Below are positions 2,130-55,500 of a stretch of 64,000 bases of DNA, in pieces. Position 1 is the stretch's first letter. Each line of letters begins with the position of its first letter. The position numbers and the translations under genes were made by a program. Where the stretch lies: the NCBI GenBank assembly GCA_963514005.1, contig OY740789.1, positions 72,912,001 to 72,976,000 of the forward strand, in the 5' to 3' direction. This stretch comes from Raja brachyura (Eukaryota). A model generated the notes under the pieces. That model searched no databases. It saw nothing but the letters and a program-made list of their open reading frames with translations, and was not told the DNA's origin.

Positions 2130-5100
2130 AAACAGTTTATTTTCAGGATTATGTTGCACCCTATGCTTGTAATAAATCGATAAAGGGAAACCAAATCTTT
2201 AAGAATTGGTCTGATTTGCCTGCTAGGACGAATCTCATATCTTCTAGGTGTAACAATTCAGACATGTTTGAAATCCACATTTTAAGCGTTGGTGTTGGTG
2301 CATTTTTCCAAAATTTTAATATACGTTTTTTTTGCCATTATTAAGCCATAGTTAAGGAAACTCTCTTGGAACAAAGTCAGCTCAGAGCTGGTCTCCATTG
2401 TTCCAAAGATAATCAATTCTGCATTACGGTTCATTTCTGTTTTAAATACGTTTGTAAAAATTTTGAAAATTTTATTCCAAAACCTTTGAAGTTTTATGCA
2501 AAAGACAAAAGAGTGTGCTGTAGCTGCATCTTGAGATAAGCATTTATCACAGATGGGTGAGACATTTGGAAATATTTTATTCAATTTAAATTTTGAGTAA
2601 TATAATATATGTAAAATTTTAAATTAAATTAAGGTATGTCTTACATTTATCGAGCATTTATTTACATATAGCAAATATTTATCCCATCTGTCTTTCGAGA
2701 TATTTATAGATAATTCTTGTTCCCAGTCTCTTCTGATTGCATCAGATGGTGGTATCTCTATGTTTAAAATAATATTATACAAATATGATATTAAATTAGT
2801 AGAATCTGCCTTTCTGTTCATAGCTTCATCAAGTATATCTGGTCAAAGTTTTATGTTCTTTTGTATGTGTTTTCAAGTAGTCACGATTTGAAGATAATTA
2901 AAGTACTGATTACTTTTCAGGTTATATTTGAGTTGTAGTTGTTGGAATGATAAAAGATTTCCCATTTCATACATTTCTCCAAAGGTTTTAATTCCTATTC
3001 TTTCCCAGTGTGTAAACGTTGTATCGATAATAGATGGTTTAAACTATGGATTATTAACAATAGGAGAGAGATGCTATAGATTTCTTAATTTGAAAGTTAA
3101 TTTTATTTGTTTCCACATTCATATTGTACAATGAATAATTGGATTTTTCTTGTATATTATGTTATCAGTTTTATCGGCGAGAGAAGGATCGCTCCTATAT
3201 TAAAAGGAGAGCAGTCCTCTCTCTCCATTCCTATCCAATCTACCTGTTGGGCAGAATTGTCCAACAAGTAAATTATATATTTAATATTTGTTGCCCAGTG
3301 ATAGTTCAGAAAGTTGAGTAGTGTCAATCCACCAAATTCCTTGGGTTTACACAGGTGTCTGCTTTGAATTCTATGGGGCTTATAGTCCCATATGAAATTT
3401 GTGATATCAGAGTAAAGTTAAAAAAAAAAAATGTAGGTAAATATATTGGTACTGATTGAAATAAATATAACATTTGTGGCAGAAAAATCATTTTTATGGC
3501 ATTTATTCTGCCTATTAAAGACATCGGTGGTGTTTTCCAAAATTTAATCAAACATTTAATTTAGTAAGGGCATATAGTTTGCATTGAATAAAGATTTATA
3601 TTTTCTAGTAAATTGAATTCCCAGATATTTAAATTTTTCTGTAGCAATTCTAAAGGGGAATTTTAAAAGGTGTGTCGGTTCTTGAGGTTTTATTGTCATA
3701 ATTCACTTTTATTCCAATTTATTCTATATCCTGAAAAGGATCCAAATTCCTCTACTAAATTTAATTTATTTGGTATGCTGATTTGCGATTTTGTAATATA
3801 TAATAATACGTCATCTGCATATAGTGATATTTTATCATTTGAATGTTTTGTATTATAATCATGGATGTTCAGATGCATTCTTATACTTTCTGCTAAGGGT
3901 TCTATCACAAGAGCAAATAGCCGGGGTGATAATGCATATCCCTGTCTATTGTCCCATGATAGTTGAAATTTCGAAGAGAGTATATTATTAGTCAGTATTC
4001 TAGCATTCGACTTGTCAAATAATAATTTTACCCATAAGATAAAATTCTTTCCCATTTGACATTTTTGCAATACTTTGAAGAGATATTCCCATTCCACCTG
4101 GTCAAATGCTTTTTCTGCATCCACTGAAATAATTGATAAGTCTTCTTCTTCTTCTTCTTCTTCAGTATTATGTGAATACATTATATTAAACAGACGTCTC
4201 AGATTGTTGAATGAGTATCTCTTAGGTATAAACCCCGTTAATAGATTCTTAATTTATTAACATATTTGCTCAATCTTCTTGCTAGAATTTTCGCTAGAAT
4301 TTTCTGATCTGTGCTTAACAATGCAATGGCTCTATATGAACTGGGATCTTCTAGATCTTTATCATTTTTTCGGTATGAGTGTAATAGTTGATTCCACTAG
4401 TGTTTCTGGCAGTATTTGTTCTTTAAAAGCGTATGTGTACATTTTTTGTAGATGTGGTGAAATTGTTTCGTAGAATCTTTTATAAAATTCATTATTAAAT
4501 CCATCTGGTCCTGGCGTTTTACCATTCTTCAGTGAGTTTATTGTCTCTTCTATTTCCTTAATTGAGATCTGAGCTCCTAATTCCTCTTGTTCCAGCAGAT
4601 TAAGTTTTGGGAGGTTACAATTATCCAAGAAATTTGTAAGTTTAATGTTATCTGTTGATGTTTTTGATATGTATAATTTTTTATAAATTTGAGGAAATCT
4701 TTTATTAACGTCTTTAGGTATTGTTAACAATTCGCCTTTATCTGATTTAATTTTTGAAATCGTATGGTCCTTTTCGCGATTTTTCAGTTGACGTGCCAAG
4801 AGTTTATGTGGTTTATCACCGAATTCAAAGTTTTCCTGTTTTGTAATTTGAAATAGTCTTATCTCTTGTGGATAAGATTCTGCTTAATTTAAATTTCAAT
4901 ATTATTATTTTATTATGTTTGTCTATGGTTGGTTCTTTAGCGTTATCTACATCTAGTTGTCTAATTTGTTCCTCTAACTGCAATTGTTCTTCCTTATTTT
5001 TTTTATTTTGAAATGCTTGATGTGAAATTATGGATATTCGAATAAATGCCTTAAAAGATTCCCATAATAAAGATGGTGAAATGCCTGGTGTGTCGTTAGT

Positions 5101-5947
5101 CTCAAAAAAAAAATTCCATCTGTTGTTTTAGATATATACCACCTTGTGGATCGTTTAAAATTTGGGGATTAAACCTCAAAAACGATTTTTTATTGGGAAT
5201 TCCTAATTTTAAGGAGAAGGTTAACGGAGAGTTATCAGAAATAATACTATTATGATACTTAGGATTCAATGTATGAGGAATTAATTTTGTATCAACTAAA
5301 AAATAATCGATACGTGAATAAGTTTTATGTACCATTGAGTGAAAAGAGAATTCCCTTCCAACTGGATTAGCGATCCTCCATACATCTGTTATATTTGTAT
5401 TTTAATTATATGTATTTAGGAGTTCACTAGCTTTTGATTTTATATTAAGCCTCTTTTGTTGTGCAGATTTATCGAGGTATGGATTTAAAACGCAATTGAA
5501 ATCTCCCCCAATTATCACATTTTGATAATTAAACTCTGCAATTAATTTCAGTATTTTGTTAAAAAATTGAGGATTGTCAAAATTAGGCGCATATATATTT
5601 ACCAAAGTAAGTGGTGTAGCATTGATTTCTCCCGTAACTATAAGATATCTCCCCTCTTTATCTGTTATGATATTCTTTGATTTAAATGGTATACCTTTAC
5701 AAATGATAATTGCCGTGCCTCTAGATTTAGAAATATATGAAGAGTAATATGTTTGGGCAATCCAATTTGCCTTGAGTCTGGTCTGAGCTTGAAGTTTCAG
5801 GTGTGCTTCTTGTAGGAAAAGTATGTCTGTATTGAGTGATTTTAATTGTGCAAAAATCTTACTCCTTTTAATTGGCTCATTGGCACCCCTTATATTCCAG
5901 CTACAAAACGTGATTCCTCCTAGTTTCTTTTGTTTATCGTCTTGCAT
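2130..5947 (-). pseudogene. L1 ORF2 (APE endonuclease + reverse transcriptase), disrupted by frameshifts/stops
   Basis: Motifs SWNIRG, LFLQEAH, NIYAPN, IIGGDFN, YSRIDYF, KTPGPDGF, SVDAEKAFDQVEW, RQGYALSP, LYADD, CDKC spread over several ORF fragments. Confidence 0.92.
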
Positions 5948-6629
5948 TATGAATTACTTTAATACCTTTAAGTCATACGGTGCGACACAATACCTCAGGC
6001 CCCTAGGTGTTGGGTGGGCACTGGCGGTTGCCAAGTTCTGTTTGTATATCCCCTTCAAACTTGAAAAAAAACAGAGAGGTGTAAAGTGATATAAAAATAA
6101 AAATGATGATATTATAGCATCTAAAAATAAGGATACTATTAAAAAAATAACCACCTAGTGGTGGTAGCTAAATTCTTAACTTCCATAGATGTTAATTTAC
6201 ATTAAGCTCCGCTCCCTTGACCAAATATTGTAAAAAGTAAGAAAGGCCAGGTCAAAACTGAGTTATAGATAAAAAGTAAAAAGCCTCCTCCCCCCGGAGG
6301 AGTTAATCATTATTACATTATATCACTGCATATTTTGTTTCTATTGCTCTCGCTAAGCTAATTCCATTACTTGATTACTTATATGTTAGTATTAGATTAT
6401 TAACATTTTTTAATTAATCAGTTTTTATTTTAAAGTCCCTATATATTAGTTTTCCATGCTCCATGGCTCTGGTTTGTTTTGTCCTTCATTCCAAGTGAAA
6501 CATAAAGTTCGGCCTTGAATTAACATTCCAGAGAGATAAAATGTCTAGCCATTGCCTCGTATATAATTTCGCCATCTTAACGAGAGCATTGTCTTTTATT
6601 AAAAAGTCATATCTTCAGCGTTTCCCGTC

Positions 6630-7664
6630 TGCCGATATTATACAGGACCAGCTCCTGAAATTTCTTGTGCATATTTGAATGCCTCTTCTGGATCAATGAA
6701 GGCACGTTCCAGATTGTTATAAGTGATCCTCATTTTTGCAGGGCACATTATGCCATATCTTGCGTTTTCGATTCCTTTCAGAATCTGTCGTCTTTGTGAA
6801 CATGTCCCGTTTTTCAGCTATTTCTGCAGGGTAATCTCTGAAGAATCTCAGATTGTCCTCTTCAAACGTCAGATTCTTTCCATAAGGAATTTGTTTCATA
6901 ATATCTTCCAGAGCAGAAATGTCATGAAATTTCACTATGAACTGTCTTGGAGGGGCTCCTGGCTTTGTTTGAACTCTTTGAACCCGATGAGCTACATCTA
7001 TTTTCGGTTTGTCAGACAGTTTAAATACTTGTTTAAGTAAGTTGCCAGCGAACTCCCAAGGGTTCTTTCCAGCTTCCCTTCCCTCTCTCACTCCAACTAT
7101 TCTTAAATTCTGCTTTCTTGGACGTGCTTCCAAATCCAGGCATTTGTTAGTCATTTTGGCCAGTTGCCCTGAGACACAATCTTGCTCCTTCCTCAGTCTT
7201 TTCATCTCTTCAGACATATCAATCATCGCAGTTTCCATATCTTCCATAACCGTGGAGAATGCTTTAGTGTTCTTGAGAACAGAATCAAACTTCTTGTTGC
7301 AATCTTTTTCAACCTGTTTGATTTCTATATTTAAGCCATCCTCAATTTCTTCAATACGTTTCCTTAGAGTAGCTATTTCCTCAATGACTTTCTCATTACA
7401 TTTAATTTTTTTAGACAGATTTTTCTCCAGTGCAGAATTTCCATCTTGTATCATTTTAGCAAAGTCACTCATTAATGAGGTTGTTACCAACTGCTCCAGT
7501 TGCTCCATCTGTTTCTCCTTTGAAGCCATTACAGTAGGTATTCTTTGAGCCTCAGACTCTTCTTTGGAACTTTCTGTTGCTGTTTGCAGGGTTTTATCCA
7601 GCTCTATAGTCCGTTGTTTCACTTGAGATCTTGTAACAGCTCTGTTGGAATTCTTCTTGTGCAT
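6630..7664 (-). pseudogene. L1 ORF1 (coiled-coil + RRM/CTD, Transposase_22-like), frameshifted near the C-terminus
   Basis: 315-aa ORF 6717-7664 with coiled-coil, DLEARPRKQNLRIVGVREG, AHR, PRQFIVKF and FRDY motifs typical of L1 ORF1p. Confidence 0.88.
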
Positions 7665-33581: not shown

Positions 33582-33653
33582 CTACAAACAAAACATGTAA
33601 TAAAATAAATACAGCAAAGATTAAAGTTGACATGAACATTAACATCCTGAGCA

Positions 33654-35211
33654 TCTATACATACCTAAAACTCTGATCTTGTGCTCTTCCGGTTTGCGGG
33701 TTTTTTTTTGTTTGCGCAAAAACAGTACATGATAGCGCTACGATTTTTCATCAGGTTACTCACCGTTCTCCTGTCCTGCGAGTGCACCAAGTTTTGTTCC
33801 AATCGGTGGTATATTGAAAAACTTATCGAGGTTGAAAAATCTTAAAAAACGCGTGTGCGCAGATTCCTTCAGTCAGCACCACGCAGATTGGATTCTTATC
33901 CTGTCAGTCAATGCCACGGTCGGGATGGCACACCCCTTCCTGCCCCACTGACGGCGGCCTGTCCAGGGACAACTCACAAACTCCTCTCTCCCCTCCTCAC
34001 AGTAACTTGTCTATCATCTCCCCCACCACCGGCGGCAGCCGCGGTGGGGGGGGGGGGGGGGTGTGTGTTCAGTGGAGGCCCAGTGGAGGCCTTGGTCCTG
34101 TCTCTCTCTCCCTCATCACACACCCCTCTCCCCTGCCCGCCCTCTGCGGCAATGGCAGTTCCATCTACCCGTCCCCCCCAGGTCTGTCTCCGCCGCCGCC
34201 ATTGCGGTAATTCATCCTCATGGCCTTCTCGGAGTTCTTCTCCACCAGCTCATCGAAACTCGTGGTGCCCACCATGATGCACACCGTCGCAATCCCCCCT
34301 CCCCCCGTGGCCCGGTGGCAGCAGTGAGCAGGCAGGTGGGTGGGCAGGGCAGGGACGGGCCAAGTGGCAGCAGGGGGCGGGCGAGCAGGGCGGGTGCGGG
34401 CTGAGCTGCTGCAACGGGCAGTCGGACAGGCTGGGGATGGGCTGAGCACGGCTGAGCCGGAGTGGGCAGAGGGAGGGAGGGAGAGTCGCGTTGCAGGGTG
34501 GCCAAGCAGTTTGCGCGGAGTTTGAGTAACTCACACACACAAATGCAAACTGGTCCAATCGTCAAGTCAACGGGATCTAAACTACAGCTAACAATGAATG
34601 ACCTATGGAGGAAGGAACTGCAGATGCTGCTTTTTATGGATGGAGGGAGTGACTGAGGGTAGGGGAAAGGAGAGGGAGGGAGAGGTGAGGGAGAGATTGG
34701 GGAGGGGAGGAGGAGAGGGGAACGATCATGGGTAGGTGAGGACGGGTGTGGGGGGATTGAGGAAGAGGAAGGGGTAGGGAGGGAGAGGGGGAGAGTGGGG
34801 GAGGTGAGGAAAGTGGGGGAGGAGGGGGAATAGAGGGAGAGGAGGGGGATTGGGGAGGAAGGGGAGTGGGGGGGTAGAGGAAGGTGAGGAGTGGGGGATA
34901 GAGGGATGGATGGGGGTAGGGAGGGGAGAGGAGTTATGGAGGGAGGGAGGGAGTGACTGAGGGTAGGGGAAAGGAGAGGGAGAGGTGATGGGGGATTGGG
35001 AGGGGAGGAGAGGGGAAAGAAGCGGGAGGGTGAAGGGGAGGGAGTGCTGGGGGATGAGGGGAAATGAGCCTGTGCAGTTGGGGGCTATGCATGAGTGGGG
35101 GGACGGGTTGCATTGGGGGAACGGATGAGTGATGGAATATTGCATTGGGCAGCGGGTTGTGTTGGGGGAGCTCCCTTGTGACAGGGACCCAACGGGTCCC
35201 TCTCAGTCTAG
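33654..35211 (+). mobile_element. Complete non-autonomous Helitron-like element (1.56 kb)
   Basis: A|TCTATACATAC 5' end, GGGACCCAACGGGTCCC hairpin followed by CTAG|T 3' end, no TSD. Both ends are homologous to 53290-54626. Confidence 0.85.
34212..34293 (-). pseudogene. Captured ALG13 exon-1-like fragment inside the Helitron
   Basis: Translates IATVCIMVGTTSFDELVEKNSEKAMRM, resembling the ALG13 N-terminus (MKxVFVTVGTTSFDxL). Confidence 0.6.
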
Positions 35212-35303
35212 TTCTCTTCTTAATTCTGCATCTCATGTCAACAAGTTAGGCCGGACGCATGTCTGTGAGCGGATGGCAGGCCACATCTATTACGTGTACA
35301 CAT

Positions 35304-36752
35304 CAGGCACGTGCCGTGAGTAATTACTCAGGGTAGGCACGCAGTCCGCTTAAAAAATATATAAACCGCGCATGCGCAGATTGTTCTCTCCGTTAAATAA
35401 ATAAATAAAACGTGTCAATTCAATTTGCCCAAGGCTTCCCAGTCTCCATTATTCTGAATTACTGAATTGGGGGGGGGGGGGGGGGGGGGTGAAGGGTGAT
35501 GGCAGATGGAGAGATGATGGGAAAAAAATTCAGGGAATAGTTGAATTAGTTGTCATCTTATTGAATGACAACACTTGTTCAAGGGACCAATTGGGGGAAC
35601 AGTTCCTTTCACAGCATGTGGAGAGTCTGTGTCAGGGGTAAAGTTGTGGGGAGGGCACGAGTGTTGAGAAGGAGGGTGTCAGGGATACTGCCAGTAACTC
35701 ACTCACTCACCGCTACCGCTGCTCTCCGGGCGTGAAGCCACGCACTGTAGCTGGGGATAGAAGCAGCTCGGGGAGCTGCGAGCAGCCACCGGGACCTGAC
35801 AGCAGAACTGGCCGCCACTTCAGCGCCTTCTGCCGGCCCGCTCACCTTTCGCAGTGCTCTCCGTCGGAACACCTGTCACCTGCCGTTCGCCGACTTCGCT
35901 CATGTCAGCGGTTTCCTGCAAATTCTTAAATTCCCACAGCCGAGTAATTCGCTGTCGGAATTTAAGGACATGAGTGAGGCCAGCGAGCGGCAGGAGAGAG
36001 GTTTTTAGACGGAGAGCTGCCAGAGGTGAGCGGGGACCGCCAGAAGGAGCTAAGGTGGCGGCTGGTTCCGCTGTCCGGCCCGGCGGCCGCTCAGCCACCC
36101 GAGCTACTTCTCTCCCCACCCCCCCACCCCCCCCCCGGCCTCAATGCGGTGGCATTCGGGAGCGTCGCAAGTGGCATTATCCCAATCCCCTCCTTCATAA
36201 CATTTGTGCCCTCCCTGCAACTTTACCCGGGGCCAGACTCCCCAAACGCTCGGAAAGCAGCTCTCCCCCCCAACCCCACACCCCGGGAAATACGGTATTT
36301 ATAAACATCACCAAGAAATGTACTTACCACATCGTTGGTACAAGAGCTCCATTCTTCTCTTTTTGTTACCTAACATACACTTAAAATATTGACAAACCAT
36401 ATTTGAAAACCCCGCCAAGAAACTTGCGCTGCGCATGCGCAGTAGACTGATGCGCATGCGCAGGGCTGCAAAGGCAGAATTTCAGCTGCCTTCAGCCCCG
36501 CTTGAAATTGACGGCTTCAGGCAGCGCTGACGGCACGTGGCTGCACAGAGCTTCCCGTGTTACAAACGCTGCGGATGAAAGGCACGGAGAATTATGCACG
36601 GATGAAAGGCACGGAGAATTATGTAAGAGATCGGTCTCTTACATAGGCATAATTCTCCCATGCCTTTACTATTTATATTTAGTAATGACTATGTTATAAT
36701 TTTAGTCAGGGTAGGCAGTGCCTACCTTGCCTACCCTGATGGCACGTGCCTG
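35304..36752. mobile_element. Non-autonomous hAT DNA transposon (1449 bp)
   Basis: TIR CAGGCACGTGCC / GGCACGTGCCTG, perfect 8-bp TSD GTACACAT (35296-35303, 36753-36760), subterminal CAGGGTAGGCA repeats. Confidence 0.9.
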
Positions 36753-36764
36753 GTACACATGGAT

Positions 36765-37567
36765 CCCACCGGTTTGCTGATGACACCATGGTGGTGGGCC
36801 TGATCTCAGACAACGATGAGAAGGCCTACCGGGAGGAGGTAGCTGATCTGGCACTCTGGTGTCAGGACAACAGCCTCCTCTTGAACATCAAAAAAACGAA
36901 GGAGCTGATCGTGGACTTTAGGAGGGCACATCATCCGAGGACGTACACATCATTGAGGATAAATGGGGATACTGTGGATAGGGTGAGCTGTTTTAAATAC
37001 CTGGGAGTCCACATCTCACGCTGCAGCATTCGTGAGTAAGGCAAAGCAGCGCCTTTACCACCTCAGGCAATTGAGGAAATTCAGAGTGTCTCCGAGGATC
37101 CTCCAGTGCTTCTACTCTGCGGCTGTGGAAAGCATCTTGTCCGGAAACATTACAATCTGGTATGGGAACTTCTCTCGCCCCTCTGCAGGAACTATACATC
37201 AGGAGGTGAAACTCCAGAGCCAATAAGATAATGGGAGGCCCCTTCCACCCCTGCAACGGACTGTTCCAGCTCTTATAGTCAGGCAAACGGCTCCGTTGCC
37301 ATGCTGTGAGAACGGAGAGGATGAGAAGGAGTTTCTTCCCAGAGGCCATTCAGACTGTAAACTCCTATCTCACCAGGGACTAACTCTACTAACTTACTGT
37401 ACCACAATGCCACCCACAATATTTAATATGAAAAAGAACATGTGATTCTGTTTGTAGTTTGTTGGTTGTTTGTTTGTTTTTTTTTGCACAAAGTCCACAG
37501 GCACTGCCACTTTTCATTTCACTGCACATCCCGTATGTGTATGTGACGAATAAACTTGACTTGACTT
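36765..37567 (+). mobile_element. Rex1/Babar LINE 3' fragment
   Basis: FADDTMVVGLISDNDEKAYREEV, KTKELIVDFRR, FKYLGVHI, KAKQRLYHLRQL. Ends GTGACGAATAAACTTGACTTGACTT. Confidence 0.9.
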
Positions 37568-38019
37568 AATACTTTAGGGAACAAAAGGTTAAATATTCAG
37601 GTATCATCATTTAACTCTTCCAGCTTCAGTATAATCCTGAAGGATTTTTGCTGTACCCACTTCAAGGTTACCAAACTAATTCTTCCCAGAACGTTCTTCA
37701 CTGTGGACATCATAAAAGTCCCAAAGAGTTGTCAGGGTACAGAGGGTTATGAGTTCCTGCACCTCATTGCAGAGATTTTTTTTCCAACTTCCAATAAAGG
37801 TTTGCTGTTGCATGGTACCAAAACATTATTTTGATCTTTAAGGACAATCTTTGTCTTCACAAATACTGGTCACTCACCACAACTGTACAAATGATCTAAA
37901 TTCTAGCAAACTAACAAAGAAAAGGCGGATGAACAATAATGGTTTTTTTTCACGTCTTCACAGTGGAAGACACCAGCAATGTGCTAGAAATTCAAGAGAG
38001 TCATGAGACAATCACCATT

Positions 38020-40890
38020 ACTGAGATGAAGGTGCTTGGGTAGTTGAAAGGTCTGAATGAGGATAAGGCACTGGACCAGATGGACAACACCGTTTGAAAT
38101 AGGGAGCTGTTGAAGCATTGTGGAAGTATTATTAGGGATCTTTCAATAATCACTGGAGTCACGAATGGTTTCAGGGCACTGGAAATACACAAATGTAACT
38201 CCACTATTTAAGAAGGGAGCTAGGTAAAAGAAAGGACATTAGAGGCCAGTTAGTCTGACTTCTGTGGTTGTTAAATTTTAGTCCACTATTAAGGATGAGG
38301 TTTTGGAGTACTTGGAAGCACAACATAAAATAGGCTGGTTTCAGCATGGTTTCATTAAGGGGAGATCTTGCTTGACAGACCTTTTGGTACTTTGTGATAG
38401 ACAGTCAGGATAGACAGAGGAGACAGTCGATGTTGTTTACTTGGATTTTGAGAAGTCGTATGTTAAGATGCCATGCATGAGGTTGCTAAACAAAATAGAA
38501 CTCCATAGTATTAGAAGCACGTGGACAGAGGATGAGTGAATATACCGTGCTAAGCAGTCAGCAGAAAGATAATACATGATTACAATCGAGCCATTCATAA
38601 GTGTACCGACACATGATAAGAGAATAACGTTTAGTGCAAGATAAAGTCTGATCAAATATAGTCTGAGGGTCTCCAATGAGGTAGATAGCACTTCAGGGTT
38701 GCTCTTTATTGACGGTAGGATGGTTCAGTTGCCTGAAAGTAGCTGGGAAGAAACTGTCCCTGAATCTGGAAGTTTGCGTTTTCACACTTCTATATGTTTT
38801 GCCTGATGGGAGAGGAGAGGGAATGGCCAGGGTGCAACAATTGTCGGTGCACAATTCGCTGCAATTTCTTATGGTGTTGGATGGAGCTGTTCCCAGAAGT
38901 TGGTGAGTGTTGGGGACATGCCAAACTTCCTAAGACCTCTAAGGAAGTACAGATGTTGGTGTGCTTTCATGGTCGTTGCTTCAATATAGGTGGTCCAGGA
39001 GAAGTTGTTAGTGAAATTTCCTCCTTGGAATTAGAAGTTTTCAACCATCTCTACTTCGGCGTTATCAATGCAAACTGGGGTATGTGTACCACTTTGCTTC
39101 CTGAAGTCGATCACTATCACCTTTGTCTTGTTGACTGAGAAAAAGGTTGTTGTCTCCACACTGGACACAGGTTCTTAATCTCCTTCCTGTCTCACCATTA
39201 TATTATATCCGCCCACAATGGTGGTGTCGTCTGCCAATTTGTAAATTGAATTAGATTTATATACGGCTGCACATTCGTGGGCGTACAAGGGGTAAAAGAA
39301 GGGGGCTGAGAAGGCATCCTTGTGGAGGAGTGTTGAGGATTATCATAGAGGATCATTGTCCCCTATCCTCACTGATAGGGGTCTGATGGTCGAAGATCCA
39401 GTTGCAGAGATGACTCGAAGTCCCGCTAGTTTGTTGATGAGCTTGGATGTATAGCGATGTAAAAGGCAGAGCTGTAGTCTACAAATAGGAGTATGACGTA
39501 GGTGTCTCTATTAGCCAGGTGTTCCAGGGATGAGTGTACGGCCAGGATGACAGTATCGTCCATGGTCCTGTTGTGACTGTCGGCGAACTGCAGTGGGTCA
39601 AGGCCGCTTGGTAGACTAGATTTAATGTGTTCCATAACTAGCCTCTCAAAACATTTAATGATGGTGGGTGTCAAGGCCACTGGACGGTGGTCGTTTAGGC
39701 ATGACATTTTGCTTTTCTTCAGCACTGAGATGATGGTGCAGCTACTAAGGACATGGCCAGGAACTCCATCTGGGCCAATTACTTTCTTTGGGTCCACCCT
39801 CAGGAAGTGGGTCTAACCTCTGCACCAGTGACCCTGGGAAGAGCACACTCTAGTCTGAAGGGCCAGGTGTCACCACCCTGTTGGCCTTCTGCTCAAAATG
39901 AGCATAGAAAGCATTCAGTTCATCAGGTAGGCTCAAACCATCACCACTGTCACTATGGTGTTCCGCTGGGGTTGGTGTTGGGTCTGCAACTTTTCATATT
40001 ATATGTTAATGATATGCAAGATTGAATTAATATATGATGGAATTGATGGCTGTGGCCAAGTTTGCAGATGATATGAAGATAGGTGGAGGGGAAGGGATTT
40101 CGAGGCAGCAGGAAGTTTGCAGAAGGACTTGGATAGGTAGAGAGGGTGGGGAATTAGGTGGCAAATAGAATACAACGTTGCAAAGTGTTCAATCATCCAC
40201 CTTGGTAGAAGGAATAAAGGTATAGACTATCTTCTAAATATGGAGAGGATTGAGAAATCGGAGGTGCAAAGGGACCTGAGAGTGCTGGTACACGATTCCC
40301 AAAAGGTTAATTTGCAGATTGAGCCAGTGGTAAGGAAGGCAAATGCAATGCTAACATTCACTTCAACAGGACTAGAGTATAATAACAAAGATGTTATGCA
40401 AAGGTATTATAAGACACTGGCGAGGCCATATTTGGAAAATGGTGTGCAGTTTTGGGCCCTATATCTGAGGAAGGATGTGCTGGGAGAGGGTCCAGCGCTG
40501 GTTTACAAGAATGATCCCACAATACGGGGATGATTGGGTGAACATTTGAGGAGCGTTTGATGGCTCTGGGCCTGTACTCACTGGAATTTAGAAGGCTGAG
40601 GGGGGATCTCAATAATGGGAGAGTCTAGAAACACTATAGTGGGCATAGTCTCAGAATAAAAAGATACTGTTGAATGGAGATGAGGAGGAATTTCTTTAGC
40701 TAGAGGGGGATGAAATTCAAAAGCCAATGAGTATTTCTGAAGCGCTCTTGATGAGTAAATGTGTGAAAGGTTACATTGAGAAGGCAGGAGAACGGGTTGA
40801 GAGGGAGAAATAGATCAGCCATGATCGAATGGCGGAGTAGACGTGACGGGGAAAATAGCCTAATTCTGCACCTTTGTCTTATGGTCCTAA
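38020..40890 (+). mobile_element. CR1 LINE remnant (38020-38520 and 39950-40890) split by a minus-strand Rex1 fragment (38540-39880)
   Basis: CR1 motifs (QHGFIKGRSCLT, QRDLRVLVHDSQKV, LARPYLE.GVQFW). Rex1 motifs on the minus strand (GPDGVPGHVL, LNDHRPVALTPTIIKCFERLV, LDPLQFA). Confidence 0.8.
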
Positions 40891-41747
40891 AATGTGTTGG
40901 AATCACAGGTGAATCAAAATAGCACACACTCCAGTTTCATTTCTGCTCCTTTAAAGATCTATGGTGGCGCAGCTGTTAATGCTTTTGCTTCACAGCACCG
41001 AAGTAATGGGTTCATTCCTGACCTTTGGTACTGCCTGTGGTAAATTGCATGTTCTCCCTGTAACTGTACCCAACAAGATCCATCCGTTTCTTCCCAAATG
41101 CAAAAGATGCGTTGAATCACAGGTTAATTGACTACTATAAATTGTGCTTAATGTGGAGGTAGAGGATGGCAGGCAAATTAGGGGTGAGGGATTTGGTGGG
41201 AATGCAAGAGGAAAATGCAGATTAGTGCACATGGGTGCTTGAAGGTCGGCATGGATGCAGTGGGACGAAGGGATGTTTCGGTGATTTTTAACTATGAATG
41301 TGAGGCCAATGTCCTATCAAGACATTTTTTCTAATCGATTATTTCTTATAACACAGATTTTTCTTTGTAATTTTCCCAAGTCTTCTTCAATTTAGTGCAA
41401 AGACAAAACTTAAAATATTAATGTGGTGGGGATCTTCTTGCACTCTGTTATAATGGAAATGCCAGCATCAATGGAACAGTTCACAATAGCAGCGCTGCAT
41501 TATAGTATCCCCCAGTGGCGTTCAAACCAACTTATAATGCAGTTTTAACATTAGACCAACGACAATTCTAAGTATAAATGGCAATTCCTTGTAGATACCA
41601 GTTCCTTTTACAGATCGAAAAAATATCTAGTAAAGTCAGTCTTCTTGACAAGAAGCAAAAAGAGACCTTTCAAACAGGTGCATCAAGACATAAATAACAT
41701 ACTCAAAAATATTTCTGGAAATCCTATTTCCAACTCTGTGAACCACC

Positions 41748-42588
41748 GGATGGCGCCATAAGTAGCAGGCTCGCCAACAGCCTGTCTCGTCCCTTTCTTC
41801 TTTTGTTGTTTTTAGTCTGTTTTATTTGTATGTTTTAGTGTATCTTTAGTTTTGTATTATGTGGGGATTGGGGTAAACATTTTTTATCTCTTCCCTCGAC
41901 AGAGATACGCGTTTTTCTGTATCGGATCTCCGTCCACACTGCGGCCTAATATCGTGGTGCTGGCGGTCCCTTTGTGAGGGATCGACTTCGGGAGCTCCAA
42001 CTGCAGGGGCTTCCATCACCCTGATCGCGGCAGCCTCGATTGCCCCGTTGCGGGAGCTTTGATCGCCCCGACTGCGGTTGTTTCAATCACATAGACCGTG
42101 GGAGAAAAACGAGGAAGAAGGTAAAAGTTATTTGCCAACCATCACAGTGAGGAATGTGAGGTTGCCGAAAAACAAGATGGACGTGCTGCCTGCGCTGGTG
42201 AGGACTCGAAGGGATAGCCGTGAGTGCAGTGATCTCGGTGTTAGTGGGGGCATCGCGCCATGAGAACATCCTGGGGTCTGGTGCGAGTGTGGACGGCTTT
42301 CTGACTGTTTGGGCGGACAGGGACAGCAGAGAGAGTGACAGTGGTTGGTATAACTCTGGCCACATCACGGTGAAGGAGCGTGTGTGTGGCCCAAACTGAT
42401 GAATGATGACTGTGGGTGTCCCCTTATGCTGTGTTCCCTAGGGATTCTCACACGCCGCTGTGGTGGCTGTTTATGTTTAATCTTTATGTAGTTTTGTATC
42501 TTATTGCTTTTTTGGTATGACTGTATGGTAAATCAAATTTCATTATACTTCGGTACACGTGACAAAAAAGGGCCATTGAACCATTGAG
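41748..42588 (+). mobile_element. Rex1-derived non-autonomous retroposon, copy 3, retaining extra APE-coding remnant
   Basis: Shared family blocks plus LPTITVRNVRLPKNKMDVL..RRDSRECS and ASVDGFLTVWADRD; (CCATTGAA)n tail. Confidence 0.75.
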
Positions 42589-42982
42589 ATTGGGGAATTT
42601 AGAAATATTCATAATATTGGACTTTTAATGCAAATTCTGAGTATTTTTAAGTAATTGTGCATCTGGGAGCAAATATGATCAGCATGGTACTCTCGCAAAT
42701 AATGTTGATTGTGTGCTTTTTAGAATCTGCACAACACATGAATATTATAAGTCCCATAGTTCCCATAGATGCTGCCTCACCCGCTGAGTTTCTCCAGCAT
42801 TTTTGTCAACCTTCAATTTTCCAGCATCTGCAGTCCCTTCTTAACAATATTATAAGTCTACAGGCAGATCTTCCTGTCTCCCTGCATGAAAAGAAATTCA
42901 CCATCTCCCCAACAAATGTGACAGACAACACTGAATAACTTTCAAAGAAGTGGTATTATTGAGAGCAGCAGCCAATCCTTAC

Positions 42983-43094: not shown

Positions 43095-43173
43095 CTATAA
43101 GAGCAGAGAACTAACAGTCACAAAATATTCCGAACAATACAGGCATTCAGACATTTCAAATATCTTCACAAAC

Positions 43174-43359
43174 CTGCTTCAGGATAAAGTATTTTGAAGC
43201 TTTTCCCTCCCCGCCATTGGCCAAAGTTCTCTTCAACCTTTCAAAGAGGTCTCGCAAATTAGAACGCCTCCGCCGCTCATTTACTGTGCGCGTGGTCTGA
43301 CACACTACCAGAGCATCCAGCTGAGCCTTTGCTTCCTTACTGAGATTAGCAATGTGTTT
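43174..43359 (-). CDS. mga: MGA-like exon (186 bp), basic region / helix 1 / loop of the bHLH
   Basis: CTTTAG acceptor, GTTTGT donor. QTTRTVNERRRRSNLRDLFERLKRTL...KASKYFILKQ vs MGA RRTHTANERRRRGEMRDLFEKLKITL...KVSKSLIL. Confidence 0.93.
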
Positions 43360-52550: not shown

Positions 52551-55500
52551 ATGGAAGAAGTTGTATATTTGTCAGTGTTTAGTGCGAGGAAGATTCATTT
52601 TACCCGTACGCCATACAGCATTCGATCAGAGAAATCCCATTGGCCTCATTCTGTTTATTTTCCTCTAATATATTCTCTCTTGTGTGCTCACCAATTCTTC
52701 CCCGATTCTCCTACCACCCATCGGCACTAAGGGCAGTTACCAATTTCCAGTTACCAATTAACCAAAGAGCCAGCCCATCGTCCTTAGGATACAGGAGGAA
52801 ACTGAGTGCTCAGACAAAACCCATGTTGCTACAGGGAGAACATGCAAACTCCACAACTGCAGCTCCGGAAGCCACGATCGAACTCAGGCCGCGGGAACCA
52901 TGCAGCCCAACAATACCTACTGTGCTATAATACAGCTTTTTTATCTAAAATTTCTATTTAATTTAACTCTCTTATGACGTCAAGTTTATGGTGGTCCTCA
53001 GAGCAATTATATTCTCCTTTTCTGTTCTATTCTCCTGTGTATTTTTCCTGTAACATATACACTTTTGCATGGCCATCAACTCTACACTGCTTGTCCCACC
53101 TTGAACCCACATTTGGGATAATTATAGTGGCCAATTAATCTGACAACCAGCAAATAATTAAAATAACTAAATATCATAAAATGAATTAATTAAACCCACG
53201 TAAATGAGAGAGCAGGAAATATCTTGCGGCTGCAATGTATAAGAGTTTGTGAACACTTCCGCTCAAGGTCACTACTTAATGTCTGTCTGTCTGTCACTAA
53301 AATGTTCATCTTCTTCTCTTCTGGCTTGGGTTGATTTTACATTTGTGCAAAAACGGTACAAGATAACGCTACGATTTTTCACCATCTTACTCACCATTCT
53401 CCTGTACTGCAAACGCACCAATTTTTATTCAGATCAGTGGTATATTTTAAAAGCTATTAAGATTTAAAAATCTTAAAAACCGAGCATGCGTCGAATGGTC
53501 TCCTCCCCTGTCCGTCACCGCCGGGACGGCGACGCCCCTTCCGGCACCATCGCTACACTGATTGGCCACGTTCGCTATCACTCACCGGCACATGCCAGCC
53601 TCTACCGGCGCGCGGCTGTAGCTGTTGGTGCTCTGGTACCAGGCTGAGGATACGAGGCCTGAGCCTGGTTCTGAGGGCGCCGACAGCTGATGTTTTTCCA
53701 GGGCACGCAAAAAGGCAGGGGAGCGGCAACCTCGAGATCCTGGGGAGGTGAGGAGGGAGAGTAGGGGGATTGAGGGAGAGCAGGGGGTATGGAGGGAGAG
53801 GGAGGAGAAAGTGGGGGAGGTAAGGTGAGTGGGGAAAGTGAGGAGGGAGCCTGGGCGATTGAGGGAGAGCAGGGGGTATGGAGGGAGAGGGAGGAGAAAG
53901 TGGGGGAGGTAAGGAGGGTGGGGAAAGTGGGGGAGGTAAGGAGGGTGGGGAAAGTGGGGGAGGTGAGGAGGGAGCCTGGGGGGATTAAGGGAGAGGAGGG
54001 GCTAGGGAGGGATGGGAAAGTGGGGGAGGTGAGGAGGGAGAGTGGGGAGGAGGGGGAATAGAGGGATAGGAGGGGTGTAGGGAGGGGAGAGGAGTTTGGA
54101 GGGAGGGAGTGGAGGTAGGGGAAAGGAGACATGAGGGAGGGATTGGGGAGGGTAGGAGGGGAGCGAGAGAGGTGAGTCGGGAGAGTGGGGGAAAAGGCAG
54201 AATAGAGGGAGGAGAGGGAGTGGGGGAGGTAGGGAGTAGGGAATAGAGAGAGAGCAGGGCAGTGGGGAAGGTGAGGAGGGATAGTGGGGGGATAGGGGGA
54301 GGTGAGGAGTGGAGAGTGGAGGGTAGAGGGATAGGGGGGTAAGGAGGGGAAAGGAGTGGAGAGAGGGTGTGAGGGAGTGGCTGAGGGTATGGGAAAGGAG
54401 TGGGAGGGAGATGTAAGGGTGGGATTGGGGAGGGGAGGAGGAGTGGGGAAAGAAAAGGGACGGTGAAGAGGAAGGGGAGAGAGTGCTGGGAATGAAGGGA
54501 AATGAGCCGTGCCTGCGCAGTTGGGGGCTATGGGTGAGTGGTGGAATATTGCATTGGGGGAACGGGTTGCATTGGGGGACCAGGCCTCCCATGTGACAGG
54601 GACCTAACGGGTCCCACCTAGTCTAGTATACTATTAAAAGTCTTGACTTGTTTGCCTGTCTGTCTGTAGTCTCAGGTGCTACATAATAACAGGTAATAAC
54701 ATAATAACATAATACATGGTAGCGCTAAATTCTTTGCAGAATCTTACTCAGCTTTCTCCCGTCATCGGTCAAATCAATTTTCCTTTATATTTTATGTTAT
54801 ATTTCACGGTGTAAGGTTTACAAAAGCCAACGATTTACCAACTTTAACAAGATTTTTACTGATAATAGCCTTCCTGCCAGCTTCCAACAAACTACAATAC
54901 AAAGTTGCTATACAGGAACACTCTGTGATTCCACCAACTTTTCACCTAAACAGGATATCACAGTCCTCCACCTGACAATTGTAACAATGTTGCCATCATG
55001 CCACACTTACTCCAGCTCCTGGCAGGACAGGAGGGGAAGTGCTGGAATCTTTTGTTCGACAATGGGTTGAGTTGGGGGACTACGCGTCCCGTGGGGGGTA
55101 TGGGTTAGTAGTGCAATATTGCGTTGAGGAACGGGTTGCCGGGACGGCGACGCTCCTTCCAGCACTCGCTGTCAATCGGGAATCCGCTGATTGGAGTCGG
55201 GGAAGTCGCTGAGTGGAGTCGGGGAAGCCAGTGAGTGGAGTCTGTACAGCCATTCAATATTCGGCCTTCGAGCCTGCACCACCATTCAATATGATCATGG
55301 ATGATCATCCAACTCAGTATCCCATACCTGCCTTCTCTCCATACCCCCTGATCCCTTTAGCCACAAGAGCCACATCCTCTTGAATATAGCCAATGAACTG
55401 GCCTCAACGACCTTCTGTGGCAGAGAATTCCAGAGACTCACCACTCTCTGTGTAAAGAATGTTTTCCTCAAAAAACTGTGTGTGTGTCTGCCGACATCCG

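What the first reader, a model, noticed from the sequence alone, without database searches (positions are those of the whole stretch)
34212..34293. Helitron carrying an apparent captured first exon of ALG13
Seen: within the complete A|TC...CTAG|T element (33654-35211), a GC-rich minus-strand segment translates IATVCIMVGTTSFDELVEKNSEKAMRM. The ATT GCG at its start is one substitution from ATG GCG. Established: ALG13 (UDP-GlcNAc transferase subunit) begins with the conserved motif VFVTVGTTSFD, and Helitrons capture host gene fragments (maize, vesper bats). Inference: this is gene-fragment capture by a fish Helitron family, and it lies sense to the MGA pre-mRNA.
Basis: partly seen in the sequence, partly recalled or inferred. 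Interest (0 to 1): 0.72.

Follow-up and report, generated by a model that had tools for sequence, protein, structure and literature searches.

The report
Skate Helitron carrying ALG13's first exon
A rolling-circle jumping gene in a skate-like fish carries a backwards copy of the start of the housekeeping gene ALG13 and has spread it to at least 400 places in the genome; the copy here has lost its start codon and splice signal and is likely an inert passenger, a behaviour already described in bats and frogs.

Summary
Confirmed. Window 33654-35211 is a non-autonomous Helitron. Five paralogous empty sites show an A|T insertion without target-site duplication, a hairpin lies 10 nt before CTAG, and both ends are shared with a broken RepHel-coding element on C21. 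Its middle (about 34094-34635, antisense to the element) aligns to the genome's own ALG13 locus on C13 at 74% (E 3e-92). It holds about 340 bp upstream, the 81-nt first coding exon, the splice donor and about 120 bp of intron 1, so the capture was from DNA. A 24-base exon pattern matches 407 places (control 0). Copies are about 6% from their consensus, with no sign of selection on the peptide (pN/pS 1.2, p 0.25). This copy lost its ATG, its GT donor and 3 bp; 32 of 63 sampled copies keep all signals. One correction: the host is not the complete MGA gene but a frameshifted tandem MGA duplicate with no T-box found. The anatomy matches bat HelibatN3 (NUBPL). My paper searches found no report for cartilaginous fish, but this scan noted the same family earlier, in this genome and another. 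New member of a known kind.

The parts
33654..35211 (+). Non-autonomous Helitron, 1,558 bp, TC...CTAG, inserted between A and T without target-site duplication
   Evidence: Dispersed near-full-length copies 74-79% identical; 5 of 5 paralogous empty sites; ends shared with the RepHel element C21:37310632-37304318
33654..33945 (+). Helitron 5' region, shared with the RepHel-coding element (first 211 bp, 86%) and with sister non-autonomous elements that lack ALG13 (about the first 210-300 bp)
33946..34093 (.). About 150 bp subfamily-specific segment of unresolved origin (boundaries approximate)
   Evidence: 19 of 39 non-self hits were examined and all belonged to this subfamily (17 with the exon, 2 internal deletions); no convincing match in the 100 kb around ALG13 (best E 0.013, short low-complexity words)
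34094..34215 (-). Captured start of ALG13 intron 1; splice donor decayed from GTGAGT to ATGAAT (34215-34210)
34216..34293 (-). Captured ALG13 first coding exon (81 nt in the donor, C13:8803051-8803131; 78 nt here); ATG to ATT, 3-bp deletion, 87% identical to the donor
   Evidence: exon boundary confirmed against Leucoraja ALG13 and by contigs ending at the exon end
34294..34635 (-). Captured ALG13 upstream DNA: 5' UTR and inferred CpG-island promoter, a (CA)n run and the end of a short interspersed repeat that sits upstream of ALG13
   Evidence: BLAST to 34618, about 17 more bases by eye; donor GC 74%, CpG o/e 0.81 versus 0.55 in this copy; contigs of runs guessed to be RNA cover 57-109 nt upstream of the ATG
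34636..35100 (+). GA-rich Helitron interior with an internal duplication of about 90 bp, shared with ALG13-free sister elements
35183..35201 (+). 3' subterminal hairpin (8-bp stem, 3-nt loop) ending 10 nt before the terminal base
   Evidence: z -2.2; same stem in the RepHel element, z -2.8
33582..42982 (-). GT..AG intron of the host MGA-like duplicate; the element lies 72 bp from its acceptor
   Evidence: bHLH exon at 43159-43359 (Pfam HLH E 2e-8)

Best explanation
This is a non-autonomous Helitron whose ancestor likely took up, once and at the DNA level, about 540 bp of the ALG13 gene start; the loaded element was then likely copied by a partner RepHel transposase to over 400 sites, and this copy is likely a decaying passenger. 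Shown: the element's ends, the empty sites, a RepHel element with the same ends, the donor locus, retention of intron sequence, the copy count, and loss of ATG and GT here. Inferred: the fragment replaced the middle of an existing Helitron by template switching or gap repair (about 60%) rather than by read-through past a 3' end (about 35%). Also inferred: mobilisation in trans by rolling-circle transposition, and lack of function of this copy.
For: Donor alignment 74%, E 3e-92, across upstream DNA, exon and intron. No ALG13 exon-2 sequence in 70 copy regions, so not a retrocopy. 407 pattern matches, 0 for the reversed control. 33 of 37 scoreable 5' ends read A|TC; 26 of 43 scoreable 3' ends read CTAG|T and 40 of 43 are followed by T (70 copies examined). 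A RepHel element with Helitron_like_N and PIF1 domains has the same ends. Single origin: the copies share alleles absent from today's donor (A at exon base 55 in 56 of 63, T at base 42 in 57 of 63) and none has both donor states at bases 5 and 55. Neutral decay: 43 synonymous and 154 non-synonymous non-CpG changes, pN/pS 1.23, p 0.25; CpG sites 29% changed versus 5.5% elsewhere; 14 of 63 frameshifted. Internal uptake: ALG13-free sisters share both the 5' region and the GA-rich 3' half, and no Helitron end of this family lies in 100 kb around the donor.
Against: Absence of Helitron ends at the donor does not exclude read-through capture; Thomas et al. found none in 26 bat cases and name loss of the progenitor as one explanation (PMC4224331, section 15). 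The left junction is blurred by 150 bp of unknown origin. The pN/pS counts treat related copies as independent, and a pooled test cannot see a few selected copies. The 70 copies are best-scoring matches, not a random sample. The one RepHel partner found is broken, and the nine other RepHel regions fetched showed no match to this 5' end.
Confidence: 0.88

Rival explanations
1. Same element and cargo, but captured by 3'-end bypass: a Helitron in ALG13 intron 1 read through the exon and promoter and ended in a second Helitron upstream, making a composite element.
For: Shown experimentally for Helraiser (PMC4778049, passages) and in one bat composite element (PMC4224331 section 15). The antisense orientation fits an element reading out of intron 1 towards the promoter.
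Against: No family ends within C13:8,741,501-8,841,500. The cargo is joined to the middle of the sister element's GA-rich half rather than to a second 5' end, and it replaces about 450 bp of sister interior.
Confidence: 0.35
2. The family acts as a mobile promoter plus first exon plus splice donor, like HelibatN3, and some copies drive chimeric transcripts.
For: 32 of 63 fully covered copies keep ATG, open frame and GT. HelibatN3 with the same anatomy drives transcripts (PMC4778049, passages). Contigs with the Helitron-type allele (A at exon base 55) occur in two runs guessed to be RNA (X1, X9).
Against: This copy lacks ATG and GT and has lost CpGs. There is no purifying selection. The runs are only guessed to be RNA, are contigs, come from other organisms, and one piece runs on into the intron unspliced. 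The intact fraction is inflated by sampling the best matches.
Confidence: 0.2
3. The fragment is a retroposed ALG13 mRNA piece, or a chance GTTSFD match.
For: The peptide alone scores no Pfam hit to the family. An earlier unchecked note reports a spliced DPP3 piece in another Helitron of this genome.
Against: About 120 bp of intron 1 and about 340 bp of upstream DNA align to the donor; no exon 2 in 70 copy regions; E 2e-55 genome-wide.
Confidence: 0.01

Closest known systems
HelibatN3 of Myotis bats (NUBPL capture; PMC4224331 Table S2, PMC4778049)
   Same: Non-autonomous TC...CTAG Helitron carrying promoter, 5' UTR, exon 1 and intron 1 of a host gene, internal and in minus orientation, amplified to many copies (1,033 bp, 2,745 copies). 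HelibatN23.3 (PIAS1), N301 (STK24) and N440 (KIAA1429) have the same layout.
   Different: Different gene (ALG13 has 0 occurrences in the 4 supplementary files searched; 1 file could not be searched), different lineage (skate-like fish), about 400-600 copies, and no evidence here of promoter use. Sequence relationship to Helibat elements was not tested.
Heli1Xen1 non-autonomous Helitrons of Xenopus laevis (PMC12001565)
   Same: [quoted passage not shown]
   Different: 64 insertions in all, the two examples quoted having 17 and 6 copies, in a family described as probably still active; here one fragment has over 400 copies about 6% from consensus.
Maize gene-fragment Helitrons (recalled; cited in PMC12001565)
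   Same: Host fragments carried inside non-autonomous Helitrons.
   Different: Orientation there is described as biased to the Helitron's own direction; here the fragment is antisense.

Membership tests
Helitron (canonical Helitron1, non-autonomous) | 5' TC and 3' CTRR termini | tested here: met
   TC at 36 of 37 scoreable 5' ends; CTAG or CTAA at 32 of 43 scoreable 3' ends
Helitron (canonical Helitron1, non-autonomous) | Insertion between A and T without target-site duplication | tested here: met
   5 of 5 paralogous empty sites
Helitron (canonical Helitron1, non-autonomous) | Short hairpin about 11 nt before the 3' end | tested here: met
   8-bp stem ending 10 nt before the end, z -2.2, 4 of 200 shuffles as good; Helraiser's lies 11 nt upstream
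Helitron (canonical Helitron1, non-autonomous) | A RepHel-coding partner with the same ends | tested here: met
   C21:37310632-37304318, 6,315 bp, 86% over the first 211 bp and 77% over the last 105-115 bp; PF14214 and PF05970 above cut-off; the partner is broken
Helitron (canonical Helitron1, non-autonomous) | Dispersed copies with unrelated flanks | tested here: met
Helitron (canonical Helitron1, non-autonomous) | Rolling-circle transposition by RepHel in trans | not testable with these tools
   inferred from shared ends
Helentron / Helitron2 | Subterminal inverted repeats and TT insertion (features recalled) | tested here: not met
   Target is A|T and ends are TC/CTAG; no search for subterminal inverted repeats was run
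Captured ALG13 5' gene fragment | Nucleotide alignment to the species' own ALG13 exon 1 and flanks | tested here: met
   locus identity
HelibatN3-like mobile promoter / exon trap | Intact promoter, ATG and splice donor in this copy | tested here: not met
   ATT for ATG, AT for GT, CpG o/e 0.55 versus 0.81; 32 of 63 sampled copies keep ATG, frame and GT
HelibatN3-like mobile promoter / exon trap | Transcripts initiating in or splicing from family copies | tested here: inconclusive
   Only contigs of runs guessed to be RNA, from other organisms

The most novel reading that the evidence does not exclude
Skates carry several hundred dispersed ALG13 promoter-first-exon-donor cassettes, about half of the best-preserved still intact, and some drive chimeric or truncated host transcripts. 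The repeated capture of CpG-island gene starts in bats, frogs and skates would then reflect a general preference of vertebrate Helitrons, testable in a slowly evolving genome where donor, empty sites and ALG13-free sister elements all survive.
Probability: 0.2. Interest if true: 0.62.

Novelty: new member of a known kind. Interest (0 to 1): 0.36.

Why it matters
In the papers I read, vertebrate Helitron capture of host gene starts is described for vesper bats and Xenopus. A clean case in a cartilaginous fish extends it to the other main branch of jawed vertebrates. The donor, the ALG13-free sisters, a RepHel partner and paralogous empty sites are all still readable, so the family is a good test case for the open question of how Helitrons capture DNA and why 5' gene ends are favoured. 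It also warns annotators of some 400 false ALG13 first exons. This particular copy shows no sign of function.

Tried and rejected
Pfam on the window peptide gave no ALG13-family hit. PDB sequence searches with donor exons 1 and 2 gave 0 hits. A protein search with the bHLH exon found nothing, and Pfam on five other candidate host exons gave no informative family. MGA identity therefore rests on collinearity with the T-box/MGA_dom/bHLH neighbour and on recalled MGA motifs. A second donor for the 150-bp segment was not found (19 of 39 non-self hits examined). Nine further RepHel regions showed no 5'-end match; one had a 42-base 3'-end match. Expression: no RNA holder listed; contigs cannot show starts or strand. 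One alignment timed out and was redone faster. No tree was built and no absolute age is given. Literature: Helitron + ALG13 gave 0 papers. (cartilaginous, elasmobranch, skate, fish, Chondrichthyes terms) listed no title or abstract start on Helitron capture in sharks or skates; most were seen only as listings. Repeat libraries such as Repbase or Dfam could not be searched and may already hold this element. One supplementary file of PMC4224331 could not be searched.

Full report
Observation. The window is G000:C9:72,912,001-72,976,000 of a 2.7-Gb genome. The peptide by itself is weak evidence, with no Pfam hit to ALG13's family. The DNA is decisive: the best non-self match of window 34170-34420 is C13:8802918-8803157 (E 2e-55).

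The donor is ALG13. A PF04101 search found an exon at C13:8811493. In 100 kb fetched around it, exon 1 is C13:8803051-8803131 (81 nt, followed by GTGAGT) and exon 2 starts at 8808926. Exon 2 is 93% identical to a protein named ALG13 from Leucoraja and 74-83% identical to eight other cartilaginous-fish proteins, so the fish is skate-like. The Leucoraja protein maps to this locus in 15 pieces, and its residue 28 begins exon 2. Contigs of three runs guessed to be RNA end exactly at the exon end.

Extent of the capture. Element bases 441-965 (window 34094-34618) align antisense to C13:8803236-8802732 at 74% (E 3e-92); by eye the match runs about 17 bases further. The piece holds about 120 bp of intron 1, the exon and about 340 bp upstream, including a (CA)n run and the end of an interspersed repeat. 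None of 70 copy regions holds exon 2. The capture was therefore from genomic DNA. The donor segment is 74% GC with CpG o/e 0.81; calling it a promoter is an inference.

The carrier is a canonical Helitron. Near-full-length copies at 74-79% identity lie on many contigs with unrelated flanks. Of 70 copies, 37 had a scoreable 5' end (33 A|TC) and 43 a scoreable 3' end (26 CTAG|T, 40 followed by T). An 8-bp hairpin ends 10 nt before the last base. The flank has five paralogues on C9, and all five read straight through A|T with no element and no duplication. One hit of the 5' end lies beside a RepHel hit. That 6,315-bp element on C21 shares both ends and encodes broken Helitron_like_N and PIF1 domains.

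Copy number and age. A 24-base exon pattern with up to 2 mismatches matches 407 places, control 0; by eye the donor itself would be one of them. The pattern catches 12 of 17 exon-bearing copies found through another segment, which suggests roughly 400-600 copies; first-look candidate counts were 556 and 561. Copies average 6.4% non-CpG distance from their consensus (this copy 5.6-6.2%), and the donor is 14.8% from it over the intron-exon part. The host paralogues differ from this flank by 9-12%, consistent with insertion after those duplications. The family state at codon 2 is GAG, as in Leucoraja, while today's donor has GCG, so the donor has changed since capture. Three large runs labelled as organisms E, F and G hold many contigs over the same segments; one of them may be the window's own species.

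Function. Of 63 copies covering the exon fully (70 examined), 49 keep ATG, 54 keep GT, 4 have stops, 14 are frameshifted and 32 keep everything; these are best-scoring copies, so the intact share is probably overstated. Non-CpG changes are 43 synonymous and 154 non-synonymous, pN/pS 1.23, p 0.25, with related copies counted as independent. The window copy has ATT for ATG, ATGAAT for GTGAGT, a 3-bp deletion and CpG o/e 0.55. The available expression data are inconclusive.

Host gene. The element lies in a GT..AG intron, 33582-42982 on the minus strand, 72 bp from the acceptor, downstream of a bHLH exon. The gene is collinear over about 120 kb, mostly at 80-91%, with a neighbour at C9:72.69-72.79 Mb that has T-box, MGA_dom and bHLH. 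The window copy has frameshifts and stops in the last exon, where the neighbour has a 457-codon open stretch. No T-box or MGA_dom exon was found in 184 kb. The fragment is thus sense to a degenerate MGA duplicate, not to the complete MGA gene.

Mechanism. Of the 30 best 5'-end loci, 13 lack ALG13 sequence. Several are sister elements that share the 5' region and the GA-rich 3' half with the ALG13 subfamily. The cargo plus 150 bp of unknown origin replaces the sisters' middle. At the right junction, donor-derived bases meet the Helitron's GA-rich block with no evident filler (read by eye). No family end lies within 100 kb around the donor. I favour internal uptake by template switching or gap repair (about 60%) over 3'-end bypass (about 35%), followed by amplification in trans by RepHel. 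These steps are inferred.

Comparison. PMC4224331 (abstract, sections 13, 15, 18, supplement 4 parts 8-9, supplement search) reports 110 of 645 bat Helitrons with host sequence from 54 genes, biased to 5' ends. It lists HelibatN3 with NUBPL promoter, 5' UTR, exon 1 and intron 1 in minus orientation at 2,745 copies; ALG13 does not occur in the files searched. PMC4778049 (passages) shows A|T insertion, hairpin termination, end bypass and HelibatN3-driven transcripts. PMC12001565 (passages) reports 5'-biased capture in Xenopus. PMC6817897 (passages) includes only one cartilaginous fish and says nothing on capture there. Searches listed no report of this family. Earlier scan notes describe the same ALG13 family in this genome and in another skate-like genome; I found them after my own tests and they are not independent support.

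Verdict. Real and correctly read, apart from the host gene's status. It is a new member of a known kind in a lineage where I found it undescribed; this copy is probably inert. Interest 0.36.

Noticed in passing
G000:C9:72.69-73.76 Mb (L155-L159; window 20000-64000): A tandem cluster of at least six copies of an MGA C-terminal exon, in both orientations, 80-88% identical. Only one MGA_dom match was found genome-wide. The window copy is frameshifted and no T-box was found for it; the neighbour at 72.69-72.79 Mb has all three domains. Possibly a skate-specific partial MGA expansion.
   Followed up: partly
L113:2818-9132 (G000:C21:37304318-37310632, minus): A 6.3-kb RepHel-coding Helitron, broken by stops and frameshifts, with the same ends as the element; 96 Helitron_like_N matches genome-wide.
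   Followed up: partly
L094, L096, L098, L105, L107, L111: ALG13-free sister non-autonomous Helitrons of 0.7-1.7 kb with a GC-rich interior related to the RepHel element's 5' region; 5,042 first-look candidates for the shared 5' end.
   Followed up: partly
L007, L020: Head-to-tail arrangements in which a family 3' end directly precedes the next 5' end.
   Followed up: no
L004, L009, L011, L018, L019: Many copies have (TCTA)n or (TCTG)n runs directly before the 5' TC.
   Followed up: no
L037 (G000:C13:8803290-8804100 and beyond): ALG13 intron 1 holds a long GC-rich minisatellite, and the 5' UTR region a roughly 36-bp unit in three copies.
   Followed up: no
L156:327-1127: A remnant of the same Helitron family lies near a different MGA duplicate at another position.
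   Followed up: no
window 53550-54650: A second GA-rich Helitron-family piece on the + strand, judged from its translation only.
   Followed up: no
window 3700-7660, minus: A broken LINE with endonuclease- and reverse-transcriptase-like stretches and an ORF1-like frame (family type recalled, not tested).
   Followed up: no
window 33946-34093: A 150-bp subfamily-specific segment of unknown origin, possibly a second captured piece.
   Followed up: partly
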